Part shown: in pieces, positions 9,033 to 19,241 of the stretch
Position numbering within the stretch: the stretch's first letter is position 1
Layout: each line of letters begins with the position of its first letter
NCBI GenBank assembly: GCA_016196625.1
Contig: JACPXH010000004.1
Location: 1,711 to 65,710, forward strand
DNA from: Candidatus Parcubacteria bacterium
GTDB lineage: Bacteria > Patescibacteriota > Minisyncoccia > JACPXH01
DNA: 64,000 nucleotides
Direction: 5' to 3'
Notes under the pieces: generated by a model
Databases searched by the model: none
Told to the model about the DNA's origin: nothing
The model's input: only the letters and a program-made list of their open reading frames with translations
Made by a program: the position numbers and the translations under genes

Positions 9033-9764
9033 CTACCGCTTAGCCAGCATGTCGGCGACGGCCCGCGTGTCAACTAATGCGAGCCCATCGTCCGAAGCAC
9101 TCTCCACCACGGCGGCCACCGCTCCCCCGAGTGTCGCCACCACCGAACCGACCACCGGCTCACGCCCAACCCTGATAGAAACCATAAACCCGTCATCCCG
9201 GAGACGACTCACAATGCCGTCGGAAACAAAGACGGTGGCCACCCCGGCTCGACGCTCAATCCCCGCCAGGAATACTCGTTCGCCCAACTCAAGCTCGTCG
9301 AAACGCCGCAGCTCAACCACCGGCAGGTTCACCGCCGGCACCCTTAAGAGCGCCAGACCCCGGGCGCTATCAACGCTCACGACTTGAGCTACCCAACTCT
9401 GCTCGCGGTAGAAAGCAGTCAGTTCTGCTCCGGGACTTATAAGCGCGGCACTGGTGATGAGGAGCCCGTCGGCCGTGGCAATAAAGCCGCTCCCCTGCCC
9501 CACGATTTCACCCCCCCGGCGCGCTTCGATCGTTACCAGCACCGGCCGCAGACGATTCAAACCTTCGGTGAGCGCCGTCTCTTCGGTAATCGTAACGCGC
9601 CGCGTCTGGTTGACGACCGTGGTGCGGCTCGTTAGCCGTCCCAGCAACGGGAATCTCGTAACCAAAGCGGTGCTACCCACAATCGGCAGCACCGCAAACT
9701 CAAAGAGCGCTGCTCCGAACATGCCGAGAAGTATGGCCCCAAAAAATTTTAGAACTCGGTTCAC
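9033..9764 (-). CDS. Membrane-anchored trypsin-fold (HtrA-like) protein with degenerate catalytic residues
   Basis: N-terminal TM helix. GQGSGFIATADGLLITSAALI resembles the DegP His-box GSGFI..DG.ILTNAHV, but His is replaced. No GNSGGP serine box is seen. Confidence 0.45.
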   Translation of the reverse strand: MNRVLKFFGAILLGMFGAALFEFAVLPIVGSTALVTRFPLLGRLTSRTTVVNQTRRVTITEETALTEGLNRLRPVLVTIEARRGGEIVGQGSGFIATADGLLITSAALISPGAELTAFYREQSWVAQVVSVDSARGLALLRVPAVNLPVVELRRFDELELGERVFLAGIERRAGVATVFVSDGIVSRLRDDGFMVSIRVGREPVVGSVVATLGGAVAAVVESASDDGLALVDTRAVADMLAKR

Positions 9765-13356: not shown

Positions 13357-14580
13357 CTAGCCCTGCGGCCGTTCTACCAGTTTCGCCTTGACCGTAAACT
13401 CCGCCGACCCCCGCCTCACCTTAACCTCCACCTCGTCGCCAACCCGGTGCTGCTGAATGAGACGCGCCAGCGAATTCGCTGGGGTAATGCGCGCTCCGTC
13501 AAGCTCTAAAATCACGTCTCCCCCTTTGAGTCCAGCCGCCTCGGCCGGAGACCCTGGCGTTATAGCCGGCTCGTTGTTGTCTCCTGTGGTGATGAGCGCA
13601 CCGAAGTCAACTCCCAACTTTAGACGGTCAGCCACTTCTTTGGTAACAAGCGTATGCCGCACGCCAAGAAACGGCACGCTGATCTTGCCCAATGTTTTTA
13701 CATCCGCGAGATCCTTTTTGACCAACTGCGCGGGAATGGCAAACCCAATGCTCTGGGCGCCGATGACGGTCGCGGTATTCACGCCTACCACTTCGCCATC
13801 CAAGTTAAGGAGCGGCCCGCCTGAATTCCCCTGGTTGATCGCTGCATCCGTCTGGATCAAATTCTCCAGCTGCTCGGACACGCCCCCGCCTGATGCGGTG
13901 ATGGCGCGACGCAACCCCGAGACCACGCCCACCGAGACGGTGTTTTGGAACTCGCCCAACGCATTGCCTATCGCAATCACGGTGCGCCCAATCTCCAGTT
14001 TGTCGGAATCTCCCAGGATGAGAGTGGGAAAGTTGCTGCCCTCGATTTTGAGAATTGCCACGTCTTGGACCGGATCGCGCGCGAGCACTTTGGCTGGAAG
14101 GCGCCGTTGATCGTTTAGCAAGACGGTGTATTCAGCAACAGTATCAGCAACCACGTGTTTATTGGTAATCACGAGGCCGTCTTTCGAAACAATAAATCCA
14201 GAGCCAGCTCCGATCTGCTGCTTTTGCGTACCCCTCTGGCGCACCTCGGGAATCTGAATTTCCGGAAACAGATCGCCGAAACCTTCAAAAGGATTCACGA
14301 ACGTCTGCTCGAGCACCGGCAAATCCTTCGAGATAATGACCGAGACGACCGCCGGGGAGGCGCGCTTCACCACTTCCGCGATTTCCTCCTCGGTGGATTT
14401 TGCAATCGGCGTGGGGACGGGTGCCGCGTCCGGCTGCTGGGCCGATACGTTGCTCCGACCGGGTAACTGCAATGAAGGTCCGGCCGCGGGCTTGAGCCCT
14501 GACGCAATGAACAAACTGGACACCACGATCGCGGTGATGGCGCTCGTCGCAATGACGGTAAGGAAGGTAGAACGGTTCAT
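13357..14580 (-). CDS. htrA: HtrA/DegP-family serine protease with PDZ domain
   Basis: GSGFIVSKDGLVITNKHVV His-box and GNSGGPLLNLDGEVVGVNTA Ser-box. N-terminal TM. C-terminal PDZ. Confidence 0.85.
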   Translation of the reverse strand: MNRSTFLTVIATSAITAIVVSSLFIASGLKPAAGPSLQLPGRSNVSAQQPDAAPVPTPIAKSTEEEIAEVVKRASPAVVSVIISKDLPVLEQTFVNPFEGFGDLFPEIQIPEVRQRGTQKQQIGAGSGFIVSKDGLVITNKHVVADTVAEYTVLLNDQRRLPAKVLARDPVQDVAILKIEGSNFPTLILGDSDKLEIGRTVIAIGNALGEFQNTVSVGVVSGLRRAITASGGGVSEQLENLIQTDAAINQGNSGGPLLNLDGEVVGVNTATVIGAQSIGFAIPAQLVKKDLADVKTLGKISVPFLGVRHTLVTKEVADRLKLGVDFGALITTGDNNEPAITPGSPAEAAGLKGGDVILELDGARITPANSLARLIQQHRVGDEVEVKVRRGSAEFTVKAKLVERPQG

Positions 14581-14730: not shown

Positions 14731-15771
14731 TCAATCGAGTTTGCCAACCCTCACTCCTATAAGCCGAACCGGCCGCTTGCCGAGAAACTGCCACAAGAGC
14801 TTCATGGTTGCGGCTTTGAGCGTGGGGAAACTCTGAGTGGCAGTTGGGAGCGTGCGGGATTTCGTATGCGTTTCAAAATCGGCGTACCGACACGTGACGG
14901 TTACGGTGCGAAAGTTCACCCTCTCTGCCATGATATCTCTGTGCACCTTTTCGGCGAGCTTCATCGCCGCGGCCAAGATGGGGCCGGGTTTTACGATGTC
15001 TTGTGCAAACGTGGTTTGCCGACCGATTGATTTTGCCTCTTCTGGCGCCTCGCTCACTGCCCGTTCGTCAATGCCGCGCGCCTGCCGGAAGAGCGCTCGG
15101 CCAAAGACGCCAAAAGTTTCGACCAACTCCGTCTCGGTATGCTCTTTCAGGTCGCGGACGGTCTGGATGCCGAGGCGTTTGAGATGTTCTTCGGTTTTGG
15201 GACCCACGCCGCGCAGCGCCCGCACGTGAAGCGGTGCAAGGAACGCCTCAACCATTTTCGGCTGCACCACGGTAAGGCCGTCGGGCTTATGAAAATCTGA
15301 TGCGATTTTGGCGACGAGTTTGTTTGGGCCGATGCCAACCGAAGCGGTAAGACGTTCCTGCCAAAAAATCGCCTGCTTGAGTCTTCGGGCGAATTGCTCT
15401 GCGACTTCAAAGCTGCCGCAGGAACTCAAATCAAGATACGCTTCGTCCACGCTTACTGCTTCAACCGCGCCGCCAATTTCTTTGAGCTCCCGCGTGAGCA
15501 GCGCCATGATTTTATCTGAAACCTCGCCGTAGAGCTGCCGGGGTCGGACGAACATCGCATAGGGACACTTGCGCCACGCCAAGGAGATCGGCATGGCCGA
15601 GCGAATGCCAAACTCCCGCGCTTTGTAATTCGCGGTTGAGACCACTCCACGACCGCGCCCACCCTCCGGATCCGCACCCACCACAATGGGCTTGCCATGC
15701 CATTCGGGATGCTCGCGCTCCTCGATCGCGGCAAAAAAAGCATCCATGTCCACGTGGGCTACAATTCGCAT
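14731..15771 (-). CDS. dinB: DNA polymerase IV (Y-family translesion polymerase)
   Basis: MRIVAHVDMDAFFAAIEE...KPIVVG and SVDEAYLD motifs. 346 aa. Confidence 0.85.
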   Translation of the reverse strand: MRIVAHVDMDAFFAAIEEREHPEWHGKPIVVGADPEGGRGRGVVSTANYKAREFGIRSAMPISLAWRKCPYAMFVRPRQLYGEVSDKIMALLTRELKEIGGAVEAVSVDEAYLDLSSCGSFEVAEQFARRLKQAIFWQERLTASVGIGPNKLVAKIASDFHKPDGLTVVQPKMVEAFLAPLHVRALRGVGPKTEEHLKRLGIQTVRDLKEHTETELVETFGVFGRALFRQARGIDERAVSEAPEEAKSIGRQTTFAQDIVKPGPILAAAMKLAEKVHRDIMAERVNFRTVTVTCRYADFETHTKSRTLPTATQSFPTLKAATMKLLWQFLGKRPVRLIGVRVGKLD

Positions 15772-15779
15772 ACAAACCT

Positions 15780-16714
15780 AGTTTAATCCGCACTGAACTT
15801 TTGTTCAACAGTTATCAACATTGACAGACAAGTGACCGGCCATACAAACTGAAATTAAGGCAGCTCCGCAAGGGGAGGACAGGCCCCCAATCCTGTCAGG
15901 GATGCCCGTCGGATACCCATTCTGATGGGTCCACTCGTAACCCCCTTGCCGGCCGCTGGTATCCAGCGGTCGAACACACTCTTGAGGAGCCTCCTCCCGT
16001 TCCTTGCCGCCCTCTCAACCAGATGCGTCCGCACATCTCCGCACTGGTGAGAGCCGCAGGCGCGCACGGGCAGCGTTCCCGCATCTCGCAGCGCCATCCG
16101 AGCGCAGGCACCGGATGGTCAGGCAGCGGGTGCACGCAACGCTGGAAGGCACTCCTCTGGTTGCCTTACCCCCGCCGGGCTTCGCCATCAGCGCGAAGCC
16201 CAAATTCTTTTTGATTCTAGAAGTAACTATCGTGTTGTTTTCATAGAACGAGTGCGCCCGAGCGGCGTCCGAGGCCGAGCGGGCATGGTGCCCGCCTAAG
16301 TTTTGTGAAGCAAAATTTAGGCGGGCGAGCGAGGCCGAGAAGCAGCGAAAATCCTCGCTGGGGATTTTCGCGTAGCGAGGGCGCACTCGTTCGATGATCT
16401 AGTACACGCGCTTGACATCACTTGAGAGTGGCGTAAGAATCAAATCGGCAAGGCGCCCTCCACCTCTCCTCGGAGAGTAACGGCGGCAGGCAGCAGCCGC
16501 AAAGCTGCCGAAGGTGTCGGCCTAGCCCAATACAGCAACCGTCGTCTGCCGCTAGCATCCAGCGGTTGAGCACCCCATAAGAGGAGGCTCCTCCTGTCCC
16601 TCTGTCTTATTTTACGAGGAAGGCGCCTCCGACCCATGGCCTTGCCGCTGGGCACCACGTCGCTGTGGTGCCCAAACCTTCTTTGAAAACCTGAATGCGA
16701 GGAGGTGATGACAA
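15780..16714 (+). ncRNA. Long ORF-free, hairpin-dense non-coding region upstream of the reverse transcriptase (candidate retron-like ncRNA region)
   Basis: About 930 bp with no credible ORF in a gene-dense genome. Two copies of a paired-hairpin module: CCGCTGG-tat-CCAGCGG plus GAGGAG-c-CTCCTC at 15947-16000, and CCGCTAG-cat-CCAGCGG plus GAGGAG-g-CTCCTC at 16541-16593. Additional hairpins include GGCACCAC-gtcgct-GTGGTGCC at 16648-16669. A second conserved motif ggcagcGGgtGCaCGCAAcGCTGgaagg recurs at 16105 and 16480. Confidence 0.35.
16240..16395. mobile_element. MITE-like palindromic element, copy 1 (shorter variant), inserted in the RT upstream region
   Basis: Terminal inverted repeats gaacgagtgcgccc (16246-16259) and gggcgcactcgttc (16379-16392). 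Core shared with copies at 28.3, 37.0 and 51.8 kb: gagcggc..ccgaggccgagcggg..gcgagcgaggccga..agcagcgaaaatcctcgctggggattttcgcgtagcgag. Confidence 0.6.
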
Positions 16715-17734
16715 GTGCAGCAGGCAAAACTCTCTCTCCCGCCGATGCCCGCTCCGTGGCCGGATGATTTCCGAACAGCGCTCGGCCTCGACGAAGCGGC
16801 ACTTGCCGACGCATGGTTGCACCGCGCCGACTACCAACCGCACCGCGTGCCCAAACGCAAGCCGCGCCGGATTGGACCGAAGCGCCAACCGAAGGCAATC
16901 AAGAAGAAGCGCCGGCCCATTGACGAACCGCACCCCGCGCTCCGGGTCGTTCAAGAGGCAATCCGGAAAAAACTTCTCAAACGGATTCCACTCTCATCTG
17001 CCGCACACGGCTTCCGGAAGGGACGGTCGGCAACAACCGCGCTCATCCCCCATCGGAAGTCCGCCGCGTTCTTCACGGTAGATTTCCGAAACGCCTTCCA
17101 CAAGGTAACGACGGCGATGCTCGCGGATGCGTTGCGCGAGTGCGCACCGATCATCAAACCGGATTGGGTCCCGCCGCTTGTCGCGTTCACCACCCACCGC
17201 GGCCGGCTGCCGCAGGGCGCGCCAACGTCGAATGGTCTGTTCAACATCGCCTGCCGCGGGCTCGACGCAAACCTTGCCGCCTTCGCGCAGACGAGAGGAT
17301 TCGCGTACACGCGCTACGCAGACGCGGTCATCATATCGGCAAAGGTGCCGCTGCCAACTTCGCTTCAGCGCGAGATCGAAGCGAAGATCCGAACGCACGG
17401 ATTCCCCCTTGCCGCGGAGAAAACCGGCTACACCGAACCGCGCTACGCGCATCCCGTCATTATGGGGATTGCGGTGGTTGCAGGACGGCTCCGCGTTCCG
17501 AGGCGCCAGCTTGACCGCGCCCGCGCGTTCCTGCACCGAGCTCGATACGATCCGGCGATCCCGATGAAGGTTGTGGAGGGCGTACTCGGCAATGTCCGCG
17601 GTCTCCTCGGCGGACTGCCCCAGCGACTCCTCAAACCCTACCGCGAACTCCTTACGAGCAGAAACCTGTGGGTACACCCGCGCCGGAGACGACTCGCACC
17701 TCCGTTGACTCCTTCAACTTCTTCACCACCGTAA
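16715..17734 (+). CDS. Retron-type reverse transcriptase, stand-alone, with non-canonical YADA active-site motif
   Basis: GTG start with GAGGAGGTGA RBS 7 nt upstream. Motif 1: IKKKRRPIDEPHPALRVVQEAI. Motif 2: HGFRKGRS. Motif 3: FFTVDFRNAF. Motif 4: LPQGAPTSNGLFNIA (Ec86 has LPQGAPSSPKLANL). Motif 5: YTRYADAVIISA (Ec86 has YTRYADDLTLSA). Motif 6: AEKTGY. 339 aa, retron size, no maturase or endonuclease domains. Confidence 0.8.
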   Translation: MQQAKLSLPPMPAPWPDDFRTALGLDEAALADAWLHRADYQPHRVPKRKPRRIGPKRQPKAIKKKRRPIDEPHPALRVVQEAIRKKLLKRIPLSSAAHGFRKGRSATTALIPHRKSAAFFTVDFRNAFHKVTTAMLADALRECAPIIKPDWVPPLVAFTTHRGRLPQGAPTSNGLFNIACRGLDANLAAFAQTRGFAYTRYADAVIISAKVPLPTSLQREIEAKIRTHGFPLAAEKTGYTEPRYAHPVIMGIAVVAGRLRVPRRQLDRARAFLHRARYDPAIPMKVVEGVLGNVRGLLGGLPQRLLKPYRELLTSRNLWVHPRRRRLAPPLTPSTSSPP

Positions 17735-17738
17735 AGCG

Positions 17739-17785
17739 CCCGATCCTCGCGATCGGGCGCTCTGTCTTTTTGCGGGGTCAGCGGC
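17739..17785 (+). terminator. Rho-independent terminator of the RT gene
   Basis: Perfect 11-bp stem AGCGCCCGATC-ctcg-GATCGGGCGCT followed by ctgtctttttgc. Confidence 0.65.
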
Positions 17786-17873
17786 AGTGTAGCGTGCACC
17801 CAACGAACTCAACATCTTTAAGCGATCGCTATAGAATGTTTTATTTGTTTTTCGACCTCGCCCCAACAACACT

Positions 17874-19241
17874 TCACACTCCCCTGCCGAGAAGCATAAT
17901 CTTCACAGTTTCCAACACGATGAGCGCGTCTAACACCAATGTCCGGTTCTTAATATAGTAAAGGTCATACTCAAGCTTCTCTTTCGAATCCTCCAGAGAA
18001 GCCGAGCTGAAAACATTGTTGACCTGCGCCCAGCCGGTGATGCCGGGCTTGGTCAGAAAACGCTCCTCGTAAAAAGGAATTTTCTCGTTCAAATCTTCGG
18101 CAAACTCCGGCCGTTCAGCGCGCGGGCCGATCAAGTTCATGTGCCCGAAGATAACGTTCAAAAGTTGCGGCAGTTCATCGAGATGGGTGCGTCGCATCCA
18201 GCGGCCAGCTTTCGTGATGCGCGGATCGTCCTTCTTGGTCCACGTAACTCCGGTGTCTTTCTCGGCGTTTGGCACCATGGAACGAAACTTGATGCACCAA
18301 AACGGTTGGCCGTAGCGGCCCACCCGGGTTGAGACGTAAAACACCGGACCGGGACTGGTCAGCTGCTGGCCCACGATGATGAAAGGCCACAGGGGAAGCG
18401 AAACGATGAACCCGGCCAAACCGACTGCAAACGAAGTCAACCGCTCAAATACGGATCGCGAGAAGCTGCGCGATTGAACTTCAAAAAACACCATCTCGGC
18501 CGGGCTCGTCCATGTAACCGGGAAGCGTCCGGTGAGCTCTTCGTACAGGTCTTGCGCCCGCACGACCCGGATGCCGCGCCGGCGCGCCACGGTAAGAAAC
18601 CGCACCTGCTGAGACGGCAACGCTCCGTCATGAGCAAGCGCGATCAGATGGATGCGCTTTTGCCGAAGCATCTCGCCGATCTCACGAAATAAAATCACCC
18701 TGCCCGAAACATTTGACACTTCATCGGGACTGGCCGCCACAAATCCTTCAAAGAAATAACTAATCTGCGTCTCGGGCGAAAGAATCTTAGCCACTGCCAG
18801 AGCCAACTGGCCCGTGCCGAACACCAGCACGTTTTCCCGCAGCACCGGCACCCGCACTACCAATCCAAACACCATCCGCCACGCGAATAGCAGCGCCACG
18901 GCGACAACCCCATAACTCAACAGGACTCGGCGCGAGAACTCCGGCGACCCCGGCAGAATAAACACAATAAACCCGACCGCGAGTGTTGCCAAGACCGCGG
19001 TCTGGCCCAACATTCGCAGACCCTTCACGTACTGGCGCGGAAACGCAATGCTGTACCCCTCTTGTAAAAAAATGATAATCGCCCACATGAGTGGAATCGC
19101 CGCCAGAAACAGGTAGTCGCGGCCGGGAATTTTTGCAAGGTACGTGGGGTAGGCAAAAAGCTGCGTGAGAAAAATCAAAATCAGCGCGAGGATGAATAGA
19201 TCCCCGATGAGCAGATAGAGTTGTTTGCGCAGTTGACGCAT
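17874..19241 (-). CDS. Polyprenyl-phosphate sugar phosphotransferase (WbaP/WcaJ-like bacterial sugar transferase)
   Basis: N-terminal TM helices. C-terminal sugar-transferase domain with DELPQLLNVIFGHMNLIGPRAERPEF and KPGITGWAQVN. Confidence 0.8.
   Translation of the reverse strand: MRQLRKQLYLLIGDLFILALILIFLTQLFAYPTYLAKIPGRDYLFLAAIPLMWAIIIFLQEGYSIAFPRQYVKGLRMLGQTAVLATLAVGFIVFILPGSPEFSRRVLLSYGVVAVALLFAWRMVFGLVVRVPVLRENVLVFGTGQLALAVAKILSPETQISYFFEGFVAASPDEVSNVSGRVILFREIGEMLRQKRIHLIALAHDGALPSQQVRFLTVARRRGIRVVRAQDLYEELTGRFPVTWTSPAEMVFFEVQSRSFSRSVFERLTSFAVGLAGFIVSLPLWPFIIVGQQLTSPGPVFYVSTRVGRYGQPFWCIKFRSMVPNAEKDTGVTWTKKDDPRITKAGRWMRRTHLDELPQLLNVIFGHMNLIGPRAERPEFAEDLNEKIPFYEERFLTKPGITGWAQVNNVFSSASLEDSKEKLEYDLYYIKNRTLVLDALIVLETVKIMLLGRGV

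What the first reader, a model, noticed from the sequence alone, without database searches (positions are those of the whole stretch)
15780..17790. Stand-alone retron-type reverse transcriptase with YADA active site and a 930-bp structured non-coding region, no effector gene
The RT is unmistakably retron-family: LPQGAPTSNGLFNIA and YTRYADAVIISA align with Ec86 LPQGAPSSPKLANL and YTRYADDLTLSA. It has the right size, a strong RBS and a clean terminator. Three things are unusual. First, the second catalytic Asp of the YxDD box is Ala (codon GCG at about 17316), and the retron NAxxH box is degenerate (TALIPH). Second, no effector gene is adjacent; the RT is flanked by convergent dinB and a sugar transferase. 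Third, about 930 bp of ORF-free, hairpin-dense sequence precedes it. That region holds two copies of a two-hairpin module (CCGCTGG-N3-CCAGCGG and GAGGAG-N1-CTCCTC) about 590 bp apart, a second duplicated motif (16105 and 16480), and a MITE-like insertion between them. The region could be a retron-like or DRT-like RT that acts through a structured ncRNA alone, as described for effector-less ncRNA-dependent defence RTs. Alternatively it is a decaying retron whose ncRNA was split by the MITE.
Basis: partly seen in the sequence, partly recalled or inferred. Interest (0 to 1): 0.85.

Follow-up and report, generated by a model that had tools for sequence, protein, structure and literature searches.

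The report
Orphan retron-like RT with two ncRNAs
A candidate-phyla-radiation bacterium carries a well-conserved reverse-transcriptase gene that lacks one of the three usual catalytic aspartates, preceded by two copies of a structured non-coding RNA gene and with no partner toxin gene; it belongs to an apparently undescribed group of such enzyme-RNA pairs, whose function is untested.

Summary
Window 16715-17734 encodes a 339-aa retron-family RT (HMMs, AF2/Foldseek) with YADA in place of YxDD. The change is real: three independent lineages have YADA/YADA/YADT, and dN/dS is 0.14-0.19.

The 930-bp upstream region is not one split RNA. It holds two complete tandem paralogous ncRNA units, A (15856-16212) and B (16446-16686). 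Each has a TTGACA promoter-like site, a closing stem and a terminator-like hairpin. A palindromic insertion lies between them, not inside either. So "decaying retron" is rejected.

An exhaustive protein search shows that the RT belongs to a clade of ~300-aa retron-like RTs. All named members are CPR bacteria (Uhrbacteria, Portnoybacteria, Parcubacteria). The second motif-C Asp is E/N/Q/A/T across the clade, and all other universal polymerase residues are kept. Four sampled relatives are also effector-less. Each has a structured ncRNA, downstream of the RT, carrying the same 9-bp hairpin as unit A. No Rfam family matches these RNAs, and a model of canonical retron msr from Planctomycete relatives finds nothing here.

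Best reading: a two-component retron-derived RT-ncRNA system, probably still polymerising. The mechanism is unproven. I rate it a new variant of a known kind.

The parts
15821..15848 (+). Promoter-like site of ncRNA A: TTGACA, 16 nt, TACAAA. The -10 hexamer is weak.
   Evidence: Read from the sequence. The -35 hexamer is kept in L001 (TTGACA) and L004 (TTGATA), and L001 has GATAAT as its -10. The consensus scan did not list this site. Identity to L001 jumps from 52% to 86-100% just downstream of it. The start site is inferred.
15856..16212 (+). ncRNA unit A. It has a closing stem P1 (15856-15865 with 16159-16168), a P2 multiloop with two hairpins, hairpin c, a variable G+C-rich 3' domain, and a terminator-like hairpin at 16177-16201 followed by a T run.
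   Evidence: Fold z = -5.4, or -4.5 without the terminator. The same architecture appears in the L001 and L004 copies. Identity is 94% to L001 and 79% to L004, with 11-nt and about 125-nt indels inside loops.
15951..15971 (+). Hairpin c of unit A: GGCCGCUGG-UAU-CCAGCGGUC. It is the family-wide hairpin and the candidate RT-recognition element.
   Evidence: It is the only perfect match in the 64-kb window, on either strand, to a descriptor derived solely from four distant relatives. Shuffles give 0.02 expected matches. One stem pair runs C-G / U-G / U-A across the three lineages.
16215..16400 (.). Inserted palindromic (MITE-like) element between unit A and unit B. Its 19-nt inverted ends lie at 16241-16259 and 16379-16397.
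   Evidence: Inverted repeat I1 is 95% complementary. The element is absent at this site in L004 and L002. It is present in L001 and L003 with different nested hairpin cassettes. No other copy occurs in the window or the loci.
16412..16440 (+). Promoter-like site of ncRNA B (and, by read-through, of the RT): TTGACA, 17 nt, AAGAAT.
   Evidence: It matches 10 of 12 consensus positions in the scan. The -35 hexamer is conserved in all five loci.
16446..16686 (+). ncRNA unit B. It has closing stem P1 (16446-16454 with 16639-16647), a 5' tetraloop hairpin, a P2 multiloop with two hairpins, hairpin c, a pyrimidine-rich variable 3' domain, and a terminator-like hairpin at 16649-16674 followed by a T-rich tail.
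   Evidence: Present in all five orthologous loci. Identity is 83-87% in every pair, above the 76-81% of the CDS, and the first 100 nt are 96-98% identical. Consensus fold. Fold z = -2.9, or -2.7 without the terminator. Paralogy to A is supported by nhmmer at E = 1.5e-9 over 155 nt in L004.
16547..16567 (+). Hairpin c of unit B: UGCCGCUAG-CAU-CCAGCGGUU. This is a degenerate copy; the window has an A-C mismatch.
16676..16706 (+). Possible Shine-Dalgarno sequestering pairing. ACCUUCUU (16676-16683) can pair with GAGGAGGU (16699-16706).
   Evidence: Predicted in the RNAalifold consensus. The pairs are invariant in all three lineages, so there is no covariation. Inferred only.
16715..17734 (+). 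Retron-family reverse transcriptase, 339 aa.
   Evidence: Pfam RVT_1 at 2.9e-16. The best PADLOC matches are retron RT models at about 1e-39. NCBIfam retron_St85_RT scores 125 bits, below its cut-off of 235. PDB phmmer finds Ec86 at 1.9e-16. The AF2 model has pLDDT 90.7, and the top 18 Foldseek matches are retron RTs. dN/dS is 0.14-0.19.
17324..17326 (+). Codon GCG = Ala204, in place of the second Asp of the YxDD box.
   Evidence: This is the only column that is 100% conserved in 117 canonical relatives and changed here.
17735..17771 (+). Terminator-like hairpin and T run after the RT gene.

Best explanation
The locus is a chromosomal, effector-less, two-component RT-ncRNA module derived from retrons. 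It belongs to a clade of small retron-like RTs whose named members are all candidate-phyla-radiation bacteria.

Shown:
- The RT gene is under purifying selection.
- Two tandem paralogous, strongly structured ncRNA units (A and B) lie directly upstream on the same strand. Each has a promoter-like site and a terminator-like hairpin.
- An unrelated palindromic element is inserted between the two units.
- The RT keeps every universally conserved polymerase residue except the second Asp of motif C.
- That position varies across the whole clade (E in most members; also N, Q, A, T).
- Sampled relatives also lack an effector. Each carries a structured ncRNA with the same 9-bp hairpin, but downstream of the RT.

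Inferred:
- The RT is still a polymerase that works with two carboxylates, the motif-A Asp and the first motif-C Asp.
- It recognises hairpin c of its ncRNA.
- It copies the variable, pyrimidine-rich 3' domain, held next to the 5' end by closing stem P1, into cDNA, as retron RTs copy msd.
- The RT is made at a low level by read-through of B's terminator.
- The biological role, most plausibly phage defence acting through the cDNA/RNP itself as in RT+ncRNA-only systems, is the least certain step.
For: RT identity and structure:
- Retron-family by HMM, PDB sequence search and predicted structure.

Selection and conserved residues:
- dN/dS is 0.14-0.19 at dS 0.6-1.0. Motif C is YADA/YADA/YADT in three lineages.
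- 45 of 65 columns that are at least 85% conserved in 117 relatives are kept. These include D123, Q167, G168, Y201, D203 and K236. D204 is the only 100%-conserved column lost.

The clade:
- The exhaustive search finds ~300-aa RTs with YVDE, YTDE, YADE, YxDN and YSDQ.
- They share DxxxAF, PQGAPTSN and a C-terminal EGxxGxVR...LPxRL motif with the window RT and group with it in a neighbour-joining tree.
- All named members are CPR bacteria.

The ncRNAs:
- Anatomy, promoters and terminators.
- A/B paralogy at E = 1.5e-9.
- Conservation above that of the CDS.
- Fold z-scores of -2.1 to -4.5 for six RT-adjacent RNAs, against about 0 for coding controls.
- Hairpin c is 95.6% paired, 3 of 9 pairs show compensatory changes, and 0 of 500 shuffles reach this.
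- A descriptor built only from the distant loci hits only unit A in the window, with 0.02 expected.

No effector:
- Relatives sit among unrelated housekeeping genes.
- The window's neighbours are dinB, a sugar transferase, HtrA and Nth.
Against: - There is no transcription or cDNA evidence of any kind.
- Loss of the second motif-C Asp inactivates characterised RTs (own knowledge: HIV-1 RT D186 mutants, and the YADD-to-YAAA dead mutants used for retrons and group II intron RTs). The window RT may therefore be inactive or very slow.
- The retron hallmarks NAxxH and VTG are also degenerate here (ALIPH, IMG).
- The ncRNAs show no detectable homology to any Rfam family or to the canonical msr of Planctomycete relatives.
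- A covariance model built from A and B alone failed to recover the distant hairpins, with E of 3 or more.
- P1 of unit B is invariant, so covariation does not support it.
- The ncRNA is upstream here but downstream in the four relatives.
- No consistent branching-G position was found.
- Only three lineages of the window's subclade exist in the searched collections.
- The near-identity of unit A between the window and L001 may reflect recent recombination rather than selection.
Confidence: 0.55

Rival explanations
1. The RT has lost polymerase activity. The RT-ncRNA particle was kept for a non-polymerase role, for example as an RNA-binding scaffold or chaperone. Alternatively, the CCUCC-rich ncRNAs act as regulatory sRNAs and the RT stabilises them.
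For: D204 is invariant in 117 canonical relatives and is A/A/T here, so the residue at this position is not fixed even within the subclade. NAxxH, VTG, the first F of the DxxxFF box and R186 are also changed. A subclade-specific 15-aa Lys/Arg-rich insertion (about residues 49-66) has low pLDDT. Each ncRNA has its own promoter and terminator and could accumulate independently of the RT. Pyrimidine-rich CCUCC tracts complementary to Shine-Dalgarno sequences follow hairpin c in A, B and L018.
Against: All other catalytic and dNTP-binding residues (D123, F128, Q167, Y201, D203, K236, R67) are retained despite only about 30-39% identity to the nearest relatives outside the window's own three-lineage subclade. 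That is unexpected if catalysis were dispensable. Sister lineages mostly have Glu at this position, which keeps a carboxylate. Viral RNA polymerases with GDN show that palm-domain polymerases can work without the second motif-C Asp (own knowledge).
Confidence: 0.25
2. It is a classical tripartite retron. An msDNA-RT complex restrains a toxin effector that is encoded elsewhere in the genome. A weaker variant of this idea makes the HtrA-like protease two genes upstream the effector.
For: The RT is retron-family. Unit B occupies the canonical msr-msd position and has a closing stem at its ends. The literature recognises orphan retrons that may use effectors in trans (PMC7736814). The HtrA-like protease at 13357-14580 matches the protease half of the type XI retron RT-protease models at 3.6e-18.
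Against: No effector is adjacent in any of the five different genomic contexts of the clade. The protease has the ordinary Trypsin_2+PDZ HtrA architecture. It is on the other strand beyond dinB, lies in conserved clpB-htrA-dinB housekeeping synteny, and is absent from the relatives' loci. The retron RT signatures and the YxDD box are not met. The ncRNA is unlike known msr. In the relatives the ncRNA is downstream of the RT.
Confidence: 0.1
3. It is a decaying retron: an RT pseudogene in the making, with an ncRNA disrupted by the insertion.
For: Hallmark motifs are degenerate. An insertion element lies in the upstream region.
Against: dN/dS is 0.14-0.19 over dS 0.6-1.0, and the reading frame is intact in three lineages. 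Unit B is more conserved than the CDS. The insertion lies between two complete units. The motif changes are shared by a whole clade.
Confidence: 0.02
4. It is a member of the UG/Abi defence-associated RTs (DRT2- or DRT9-like) rather than the retron lineage.
For: It is a two-component RT+ncRNA gene set with no effector, as in DRT2 and DRT9 (literature listed). Foldseek also matches DRT2 and DRT9 RTs (ranks 24-25).
Against: The Drt2 model scores 30 bits against a 390 cut-off, and Drt3a gives E = 0.085. All top PADLOC, PDB sequence and Foldseek matches are retron RTs, by margins of 7-10 orders of magnitude.
Confidence: 0.03

Closest known systems
Retrons, in particular 'orphan' retrons without an associated effector (Mestre et al. 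2020, PMC7736814); best structural match retron Ec86 RT (7v9u)
   Same: The RT belongs to the retron family by sequence and predicted fold. A structured ncRNA gene lies immediately upstream on the same strand, closed by a terminal stem like a1/a2. Orphan retrons without effectors are acknowledged in the literature, and their mode of action is open.
   Different: YADA replaces YxDD. NAxxH and VTG are degenerate; only the H and the G are kept. The ncRNA is unrelated to known msr. There are two ncRNA units, each with its own promoter and terminator. A terminator-like hairpin sits between the ncRNA and the RT. In sister lineages the ncRNA is downstream of the RT. PADLOC gives no subtype assignment: all models score about 100-135 bits.
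Stand-alone retrons of Planctomycetes (P0004-P0009; loci L006-L014), found here
   Same: They are ~340-aa retron RTs with no adjacent effector, sit in conserved chromosomal synteny among housekeeping genes, and are about 35% identical to the window RT.
   Different: They have canonical YADD, NAxxH and VTG. Their ncRNA is textbook retron: a 13-bp a1/a2, a UUUAGC branch context, two msr hairpins and long msd hairpins, with fold z = -8.6. They score above 300 bits on retron models. In the tree they are distant from the CPR clade.
DRT2 / DRT9 (UG/Abi defence RTs that act with an ncRNA and no separate effector)
   Same: The gene content is only an RT and a structured ncRNA, and the working model has the cDNA product itself as the effector (literature listed).
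   Different: They belong to a different RT lineage, and their ncRNAs are not similar by Rfam. Defence activity and a cDNA product are demonstrated for them and not here.
G2L4 and other domesticated chromosomal RTs
   Same: It is a single-copy, apparently vertically inherited RT with an altered motif C (YIDD in G2L4), in a housekeeping and DNA-repair neighbourhood. In the window the neighbour is dinB.
   Different: G2L4 is group-II-intron-like, keeps both Asp residues and has no dedicated ncRNA. The dinB adjacency holds only within the window's subclade.

Membership tests
Retron | RT groups with retron RTs by sequence and fold | tested here: met
   The best PADLOC hits are retron RT models at 1.5e-39 to 8e-39. 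PDB phmmer finds Ec86 at 1.9e-16. Foldseek ranks 1-18 are retron RTs with TM 0.6-0.8. However, NCBIfam retron_St85_RT scores 125 bits against a cut-off of 235, and no retron subtype stands out.
Retron | NAxxH motif between RT2 and RT3 (region X) | tested here: not met
   The window has TALIPH where the Planctomycete relatives have TNAxPH. Ala is 96% conserved at position 110 of 117 relatives and is Leu here. Only H113 is kept.
Retron | VTG triplet in RT7 (region Y) | tested here: not met
   The window subclade has IMG. G251 is kept. The sister YxDE lineages keep I/V/L-T-G.
Retron | YxDD catalytic box | tested here: not met
   YADA (GCG at 17324-17326). The orthologues have YADA and YADT. Of the 120 word-index homologues, 115 have Y[AC]DD.
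Retron | ncRNA (msr-msd) contiguous with the RT on the same strand | tested here: met
   Unit B ends 29 nt before the RT start. It is conserved in all five orthologous loci, with a promoter-like site upstream.
Retron | a1/a2 inverted repeats closing the ncRNA, with a branching G at the stem end | tested here: inconclusive
   Both units have a 9-10-bp closing stem (B: 16446-54 / 16639-47; A: 15856-65 / 16159-68). B's stem is invariant, so there is no covariation. A G follows the stem in B and L015 but not in A, L018 or L019.
Retron | Production of msDNA (2'-5' branched RNA-DNA) | not testable with these tools
   Needs expression and nucleic-acid analysis.
Retron | ncRNA similar to described retron RNAs | tested here: not met
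   No Rfam family matches at gathering score or at E up to 10 in 15700-17900. A covariance model of the Planctomycete relatives' msr scores at most 4.6 bits in the region.
Retron | Associated effector gene or fused domain (tripartite system) | tested here: not met
   The neighbours are dinB, Bac_transf, HtrA and Nth. The only PADLOC hits are generic matches to a trypsin domain and an HhH-GPD domain. None was found in the relatives' loci. About 25% of retrons lack a predicted partner (PMC8632793).
UG/Abi defence RTs (DRT) | RT matches a DRT/UG family model | tested here: not met
   Drt2 scores 30.1 bits (cut-off 390) and Drt3a 12.2 bits (cut-off 200). No DRT model appears among the top 25 PADLOC hits.
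Diversity-generating retroelement | Template/variable repeat pair, with the variable copy inside a target gene and differences at adenines | tested here: not met
   Both repeat copies lie in non-coding units. Differences between A and B are of all kinds and include compensatory stem changes. The RT matches retron models, not DGR models.
CPR Y-x-D-[E/N/A/T] RT-ncRNA clade (defined here) | Clade-specific RT motifs: D-x-x-[DN]-A-F, PQGAPTSN, and C-terminal EGxxGxVR...LPxRLxxxY | tested here: met
   Alignment of 28 sequences. The window RT groups with these sequences in the neighbour-joining tree.
CPR Y-x-D-[E/N/A/T] RT-ncRNA clade (defined here) | Adjacent same-strand ncRNA carrying the 9-bp / 3-nt-loop hairpin GGYC...GG-NNN-CC...GGYY | tested here: met
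   A descriptor derived from L015, L016, L018 and L019 gives a single perfect hit in the window, at 15951 (+), with 0.02 expected. Covariation is shown. A model built from A and B alone did not recover the distant copies.
CPR Y-x-D-[E/N/A/T] RT-ncRNA clade (defined here) | ncRNA located downstream of the RT | tested here: not met
   It is downstream in L015, L016, L018 and L019. In the window, L001 and L004 it is upstream and duplicated.

The most novel reading that the evidence does not exclude
The CPR clade is a distinct, previously unrecognised two-component RT-ncRNA system, not a retron in the strict sense. Its polymerase operates with only two catalytic carboxylates, or not as a polymerase at all. 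It partners a family-specific ncRNA and needs no protein effector. In the window's lineage the system has become a stably inherited chromosomal module with two ncRNA paralogues, possibly serving a host function in these minimal-genome bacteria rather than abortive-infection defence.
Probability: 0.3. Interest if true: 0.8.

Novelty: new variant of a known kind. Interest (0 to 1): 0.66.

Why it matters
Retron-type RTs are being mined both as defence systems and as genome-editing tools, and how effector-less ('orphan') retrons work is an explicitly open question (PMC7736814).

This locus offers three things:
- It points to a compact clade of ~300-aa RTs, whose named members are all CPR bacteria, that tolerates E/N/Q/A/T at a position considered catalytically essential.
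- It adds a conserved partner RNA that is absent from Rfam.
- It gives natural variants (YxDE against YADA; one against two ncRNA copies; ncRNA upstream against downstream) that make the role of the third carboxylate and of the RNA directly testable.

If the YADA enzyme still polymerises, the accepted minimal catalytic requirements for RTs change. If it does not, this is a rare bacterial case of an RT fold kept for a non-polymerase RNP function.

Tried and rejected
1. Rfam. I scanned the whole window at gathering score, 15700-17900 at E up to 10, and five related loci at E up to 1. Only tRNAs and chance hits came up.
2. A covariance model of the canonical msr from four Planctomycete retrons, searched with default filters and with filters off. 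Nothing matched in the CPR upstream region. My by-eye resemblance of unit A's 5' end (UUAAGGCAGCUCCGCAAGGGGAG) to their UUUAGCGCACUUCCGCAAGGAAG is therefore unsupported.
3. A covariance model built from the six A/B hairpins only, searched in the distant loci. It failed, with E of 3 or more. It was replaced by a descriptor test run in the opposite direction.
4. More orthologues. One genome-contig scan returned only a duplicate of L002, two metagenome scans returned nothing, and one viral scan with the unit B 5' sequence returned nothing. A phage tblastn search found only hits below 30% identity.
5. DGR reading of the two repeats: rejected (see the membership test).
6. Coding potential of the upstream region. 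The antisense ORFs of 123 and 152 aa have no Pfam hit and are broken by lineage-specific indels.
7. A second copy of the MITE, to prove mobility: none found.
8. MAFFT Q-INS-i structural alignment was not installed. The automatic six-sequence A+B alignment misaligned the 3' halves. Whole-RNA covariation was therefore not quantified; only hairpin c was.
9. The supplementary tables of Mestre et al. are not held, so I could not check whether this clade was in their data set.
10. Literature searches for YVDE RTs and for retron-like RTs in Patescibacteria found nothing relevant.


Full report
**What is at the coordinates.** The + strand ORF 16715-17734 (GTG start, 339 aa) is preceded by GGAGG at 16701-16705. 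It is followed by a terminator-like hairpin at 17735-17761 and a T run. The ORF is an RVT_1 protein.
- Its best PADLOC matches are all retron RT models: RT_X, RT_outgroup, RT_III-A and RT_other, at about 1e-39 with no clear subtype.
- NCBIfam's best match is retron_St85_RT, at 125 bits against a cut-off of 235. The DRT models are far weaker.
- By sequence, the ten PDB chains matched are all retron RTs, with Ec86 the best at 1.9e-16.
- An AlphaFold model built on 120 homologues has mean pLDDT 90.7. Its 18 best Foldseek matches in the PDB are retron RTs, with TM 0.6-0.8.
HtrA and Nth lie further out.

**Is YADA real, and is the gene alive?** The nr entry identical to this protein is named Candidatus Parcubacteria. 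Two other lineages exist: P0002 (83% identity; loci L001-L003) and P0003 (81%; L004).
- At residue 204 they carry GCG (Ala) and ACG (Thr), so the loss of the second Asp is not an assembly error.
- Pairwise dN/dS is 0.14-0.19 at dS 0.6-1.0, which means strong purifying selection.
- The synteny clpB-htrA-dinB / RT / Bac_transf is shared with L001.
- Further scans of genome and metagenome contigs gave no additional orthologues.

**The upstream 930 bp.** Aligning the five orthologous loci resolves the region into three parts.

Unit B (about 16446-16686) is present in all loci.
- It follows a TTGACA-17-AAGAAT promoter-like site at 16412-16440.
- It ends in a terminator-like hairpin at 16649-16674 followed by AACCUUCUUU.
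- It is 83-87% identical in every pair, more than the CDS at 76-81%. Its first 100 nt are 96-98% identical and its 3' domain 74-78%.

Unit A (about 15856-16212) is present in the window, L001 and L004.
- It follows a conserved TTGACA at 15821.
- It ends in a terminator-like hairpin at 16177-16201 followed by AAAUUCUUUUU.
- Sequence conservation starts abruptly at its predicted 5' end: 52% identity before it and 86-100% after.

Between the two units lies an insertion of about 160-190 bp with 19-nt inverted ends (16241-16259 / 16379-16397).
- It is absent from L004 and L002.
- In L001 it carries different nested hairpin cassettes.
- No second copy exists in any sequence I hold, so 'MITE' remains a description of its form.

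A and B are paralogues.
- A profile of B aligns to L004's unit A over 155 nt, from the P2 3' strand through to the terminator, at E = 1.5e-9. The terminator stem shows compensatory differences.

Both RNAs fold into the same architecture:
- a closing stem (P1) that joins the first nucleotides to the stretch just before the terminator;
- a multiloop (P2) with two hairpins;
- a 9-bp hairpin with a 3-nt loop ('hairpin c');
- a variable 3' domain.

Fold z-scores are -4.5 (A) and -2.7 (B) without the terminators, against about 0 for coding controls. The insertion therefore separates two complete units and splits neither.

**Where the RT belongs.** The word-indexed search suggested that the nearest relatives were ~340-aa Planctomycete RTs at about 35% identity. 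Those are bona fide stand-alone retrons.
- They have canonical YADD, NAxxH and VTG.
- Their upstream ncRNA is textbook retron: a 13-bp a1/a2, a UUUAGC context, two msr hairpins and long msd hairpins, with fold z = -8.6.
- A covariance model of their msr finds nothing in the CPR region.

The exhaustive HMMER scan of 1.84 billion representatives changed the picture. The best-scoring relatives include a set of ~300-aa RTs whose motif C reads YVDE, YTDE, YADE, YxDN or YSDQ.
- They share derived features with the window RT that are absent from canonical retrons. These are D-x-x-[DN]-A-F in motif A, PQGAPTSN in motif B, and a C-terminal EGxxGxVR...LPxRLxxxY motif.
- They group with the window RT in a neighbour-joining tree, far from the Planctomycete retrons. 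This is a crude tree with a long branch.
- Every named member is a CPR bacterium: Ca. Uhrbacteria (P0122, P0123), Ca. Portnoybacteria (P0131) and Ca. Parcubacteria.
- Like the window RT, they score only about 105-175 bits on every PADLOC retron model, with no subtype.

So YADA is one state of a position that is variable across the clade. Meanwhile D123, F128, Q167, G168, Y201, D203 and K236 are invariant.
- Among 65 columns that are at least 85% conserved in 117 canonical relatives, 45 are kept in all three orthologues.
- D204 is the only 100%-conserved column lost.
- Specific to the window's subclade are A/T at 204, IMG in place of xTG, and a 15-aa Lys/Arg-rich insertion.

**The partner RNA is a family trait.** I could fetch four relatives with genomic context: L015 (P0122), L016 (P0267), L018 (P0144) and L019 (P0128).
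- All are single RT genes among unrelated housekeeping genes, with no shared neighbour and no effector candidate.
- Each has a 270-410-nt intergenic region downstream of the RT. It folds into a multi-hairpin RNA ending in a terminator-like hairpin, with z from -2.1 to -4.0.
- Each contains a hairpin of the same form as hairpin c. Compare GGUCGGUGG-UAA-CCACCGGCU, GGUCGGCGG-UAU-CCGCCGGCU, GGUCAGCGG-UAA-CCGCUGGCU and GGUCGGCGG-AUU-CCGCCGGCU with the window's GGCCGCUGG-UAU-CCAGCGGUC.
- Over the ten copies, 95.6% of cells are paired and three of nine pairs show compensatory double changes. None of 500 shuffles reaches the observed covariation.

Tests of this link gave mixed results, and I report both.
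- A model built from all ten copies is circular.
- A model built from A and B alone failed to retrieve the distant copies, with E of 3 or more.
- The reverse test succeeded. A descriptor derived only from the four distant loci has exactly one perfect match in the 64-kb window on either strand. That match is unit A's hairpin at 15951. Dinucleotide shuffles give 0.02 expected matches (1 of 100 shuffles had any).
- The same descriptor hits only unit A's hairpin in L001 and L004, and nothing in the Planctomycete loci.
- Unit B's copy is degenerate.
- None of these RNAs matches an Rfam family.

In the window's subclade the RNA is upstream and duplicated. In the relatives it is downstream and single.

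**How it most likely works.**

Shown: a selected RT of the retron lineage, two selected or at least maintained structured RNA units with promoter-like and terminator-like signals, no effector, and membership of a clade with the same RT-plus-RNA pairing.

Inferred:
- The RT binds hairpin c.
- P1 brings the RNA's 5' end next to the 3' end of the variable domain, as a1/a2 does in retrons.
- The variable domain is copied into cDNA. That domain is pyrimidine-rich in B, A and L018 and hairpin-rich in the others.
- The RT is translated from read-through of B's terminator. A possible pairing of ACCUUCUU (16676-16683) with the Shine-Dalgarno sequence would limit translation (the pairs are invariant, so this is unsupported by covariation).

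I judge continued polymerase activity somewhat more likely than not.
- Two Asp residues and all dNTP-binding residues are invariant across a deeply diverged clade, while the third carboxylate position drifts through E/N/Q/A/T.
- That is the pattern seen in viral GDD/GDN polymerases (own knowledge).
- Against this, mutating the second Asp inactivates characterised RTs (own knowledge), and the retron-specific NAxxH and VTG signatures are also eroded here.

The biological role is not established.
- A patchy distribution in varied genomic contexts suggests an accessory, defence-like module.
- Conserved synteny within the subclade shows stable vertical inheritance over dS of about 1.

**Comparison with known systems, and novelty.**
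- It works most like an orphan retron or like the RT+ncRNA-only DRT systems.
- By membership it meets the retron criteria of RT lineage and contiguous ncRNA. It fails YxDD, NAxxH, VTG, similarity to known msr, and an associated effector. msDNA cannot be tested here.
- It is not a UG/Abi RT and not a DGR.
- The held literature has nothing on retron-like RTs of CPR bacteria or on YxDE RTs. A review notes that about 80% of CPR RTs are DGRs.
- I therefore rate it a new variant of a known kind, with moderate to high interest.

**Caveats.**
- All functional statements are in silico.
- Only three lineages of the subclade and four contexts of the wider clade were available.
- Whole-RNA covariation could not be quantified.
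- L002, the one locus that lacks unit A, is either a recombinant or a chimeric co-assembly. Its RT, unit B and downstream sequence are 99.7-100% identical to L001, but its dinB is only 80% identical.
- Unit A's 94-98% identity between the window and L001 may reflect recent exchange rather than constraint.

Noticed in passing
L006-L014 (e.g. L006:7751-7954; L009:7648-7851; L013:2129-2289): Planctomycete ~340-aa retron RTs (P0004-P0009) have textbook msr-msd upstream but no adjacent effector. They sit in conserved chromosomal synteny (PQQ-propeller, PPDK-like and HEAT-repeat genes). In two lineages the RT lies directly upstream of dnaE on the same strand. HEAT-repeat genes 4-7 kb away recall the accessory proteins of type XIII retrons.
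   Followed up: partly
L002/L005 (CAYPCM010000045.1) against L001: The RT, unit B and the downstream gene are 99.7-100% identical to L001, but dinB is only 80% identical to either L001 or the window. Unit A and the insertion are missing. This is either a recombinant genome whose junction lies at the unit B promoter, or a chimeric co-assembly.
   Followed up: partly
window 15856-16418 against L001 9050-9706: Unit A and the ends of the inserted element are 94-100% identical between the window and L001, while the flanks are 52-87% identical. This suggests recent recombination or gene conversion of this segment, or very strong constraint. Its boundaries coincide with A's predicted 5' end and B's -35 hexamer.
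   Followed up: partly
window 16260-16378; L001 about 9455-9665: The interior of the palindromic insertion is built of hairpin cassettes that differ between lineages. The window has 16-bp and 10-bp-arm hairpins at 16290-16326 and 16345-16371. L001 has other hairpins, such as CCCCGTATACAACAAC...GTTGTTGTACGGGG. This looks like nested small palindromic insertions.
   Followed up: no
P0121 (719 aa), P0126 (584 aa), P0154 (1381 aa): Among the best-scoring relatives are proteins with two retron-type RT domains in tandem (YLDD or YIDD, followed by YADD). The C-terminal domain scores highest on the type XIII retron model.
   Followed up: no
window 13357-14580 (-): The HtrA-like Trypsin_2+PDZ protease two genes from the RT matches the protease half of the PADLOC type XI retron 'RT-Protease' models (3.6e-18). 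It is probably generic trypsin-fold similarity in a housekeeping clpB-htrA-dinB block. The relatives' loci have no such gene.
   Followed up: partly
L016:5820-5903; L015:5814-5822: In L016 the RT lies directly after a tRNA gene with a long variable arm. In L015 the RT stop codon UAG overlaps the start of the downstream RNA (CUCUAGGCGCGC). In L018, by contrast, the downstream RNA has its own promoter-like site after an RT terminator.
   Followed up: no
window 16581-16612, 15984-16012; L018 about 2585-2615: Pyrimidine-rich tracts with repeated CCUCC/CUCC (anti-Shine-Dalgarno-like) follow hairpin c in unit A, unit B and the L018 RNA. They could be template sequence or mRNA-pairing sequence. This was not tested.
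   Followed up: no
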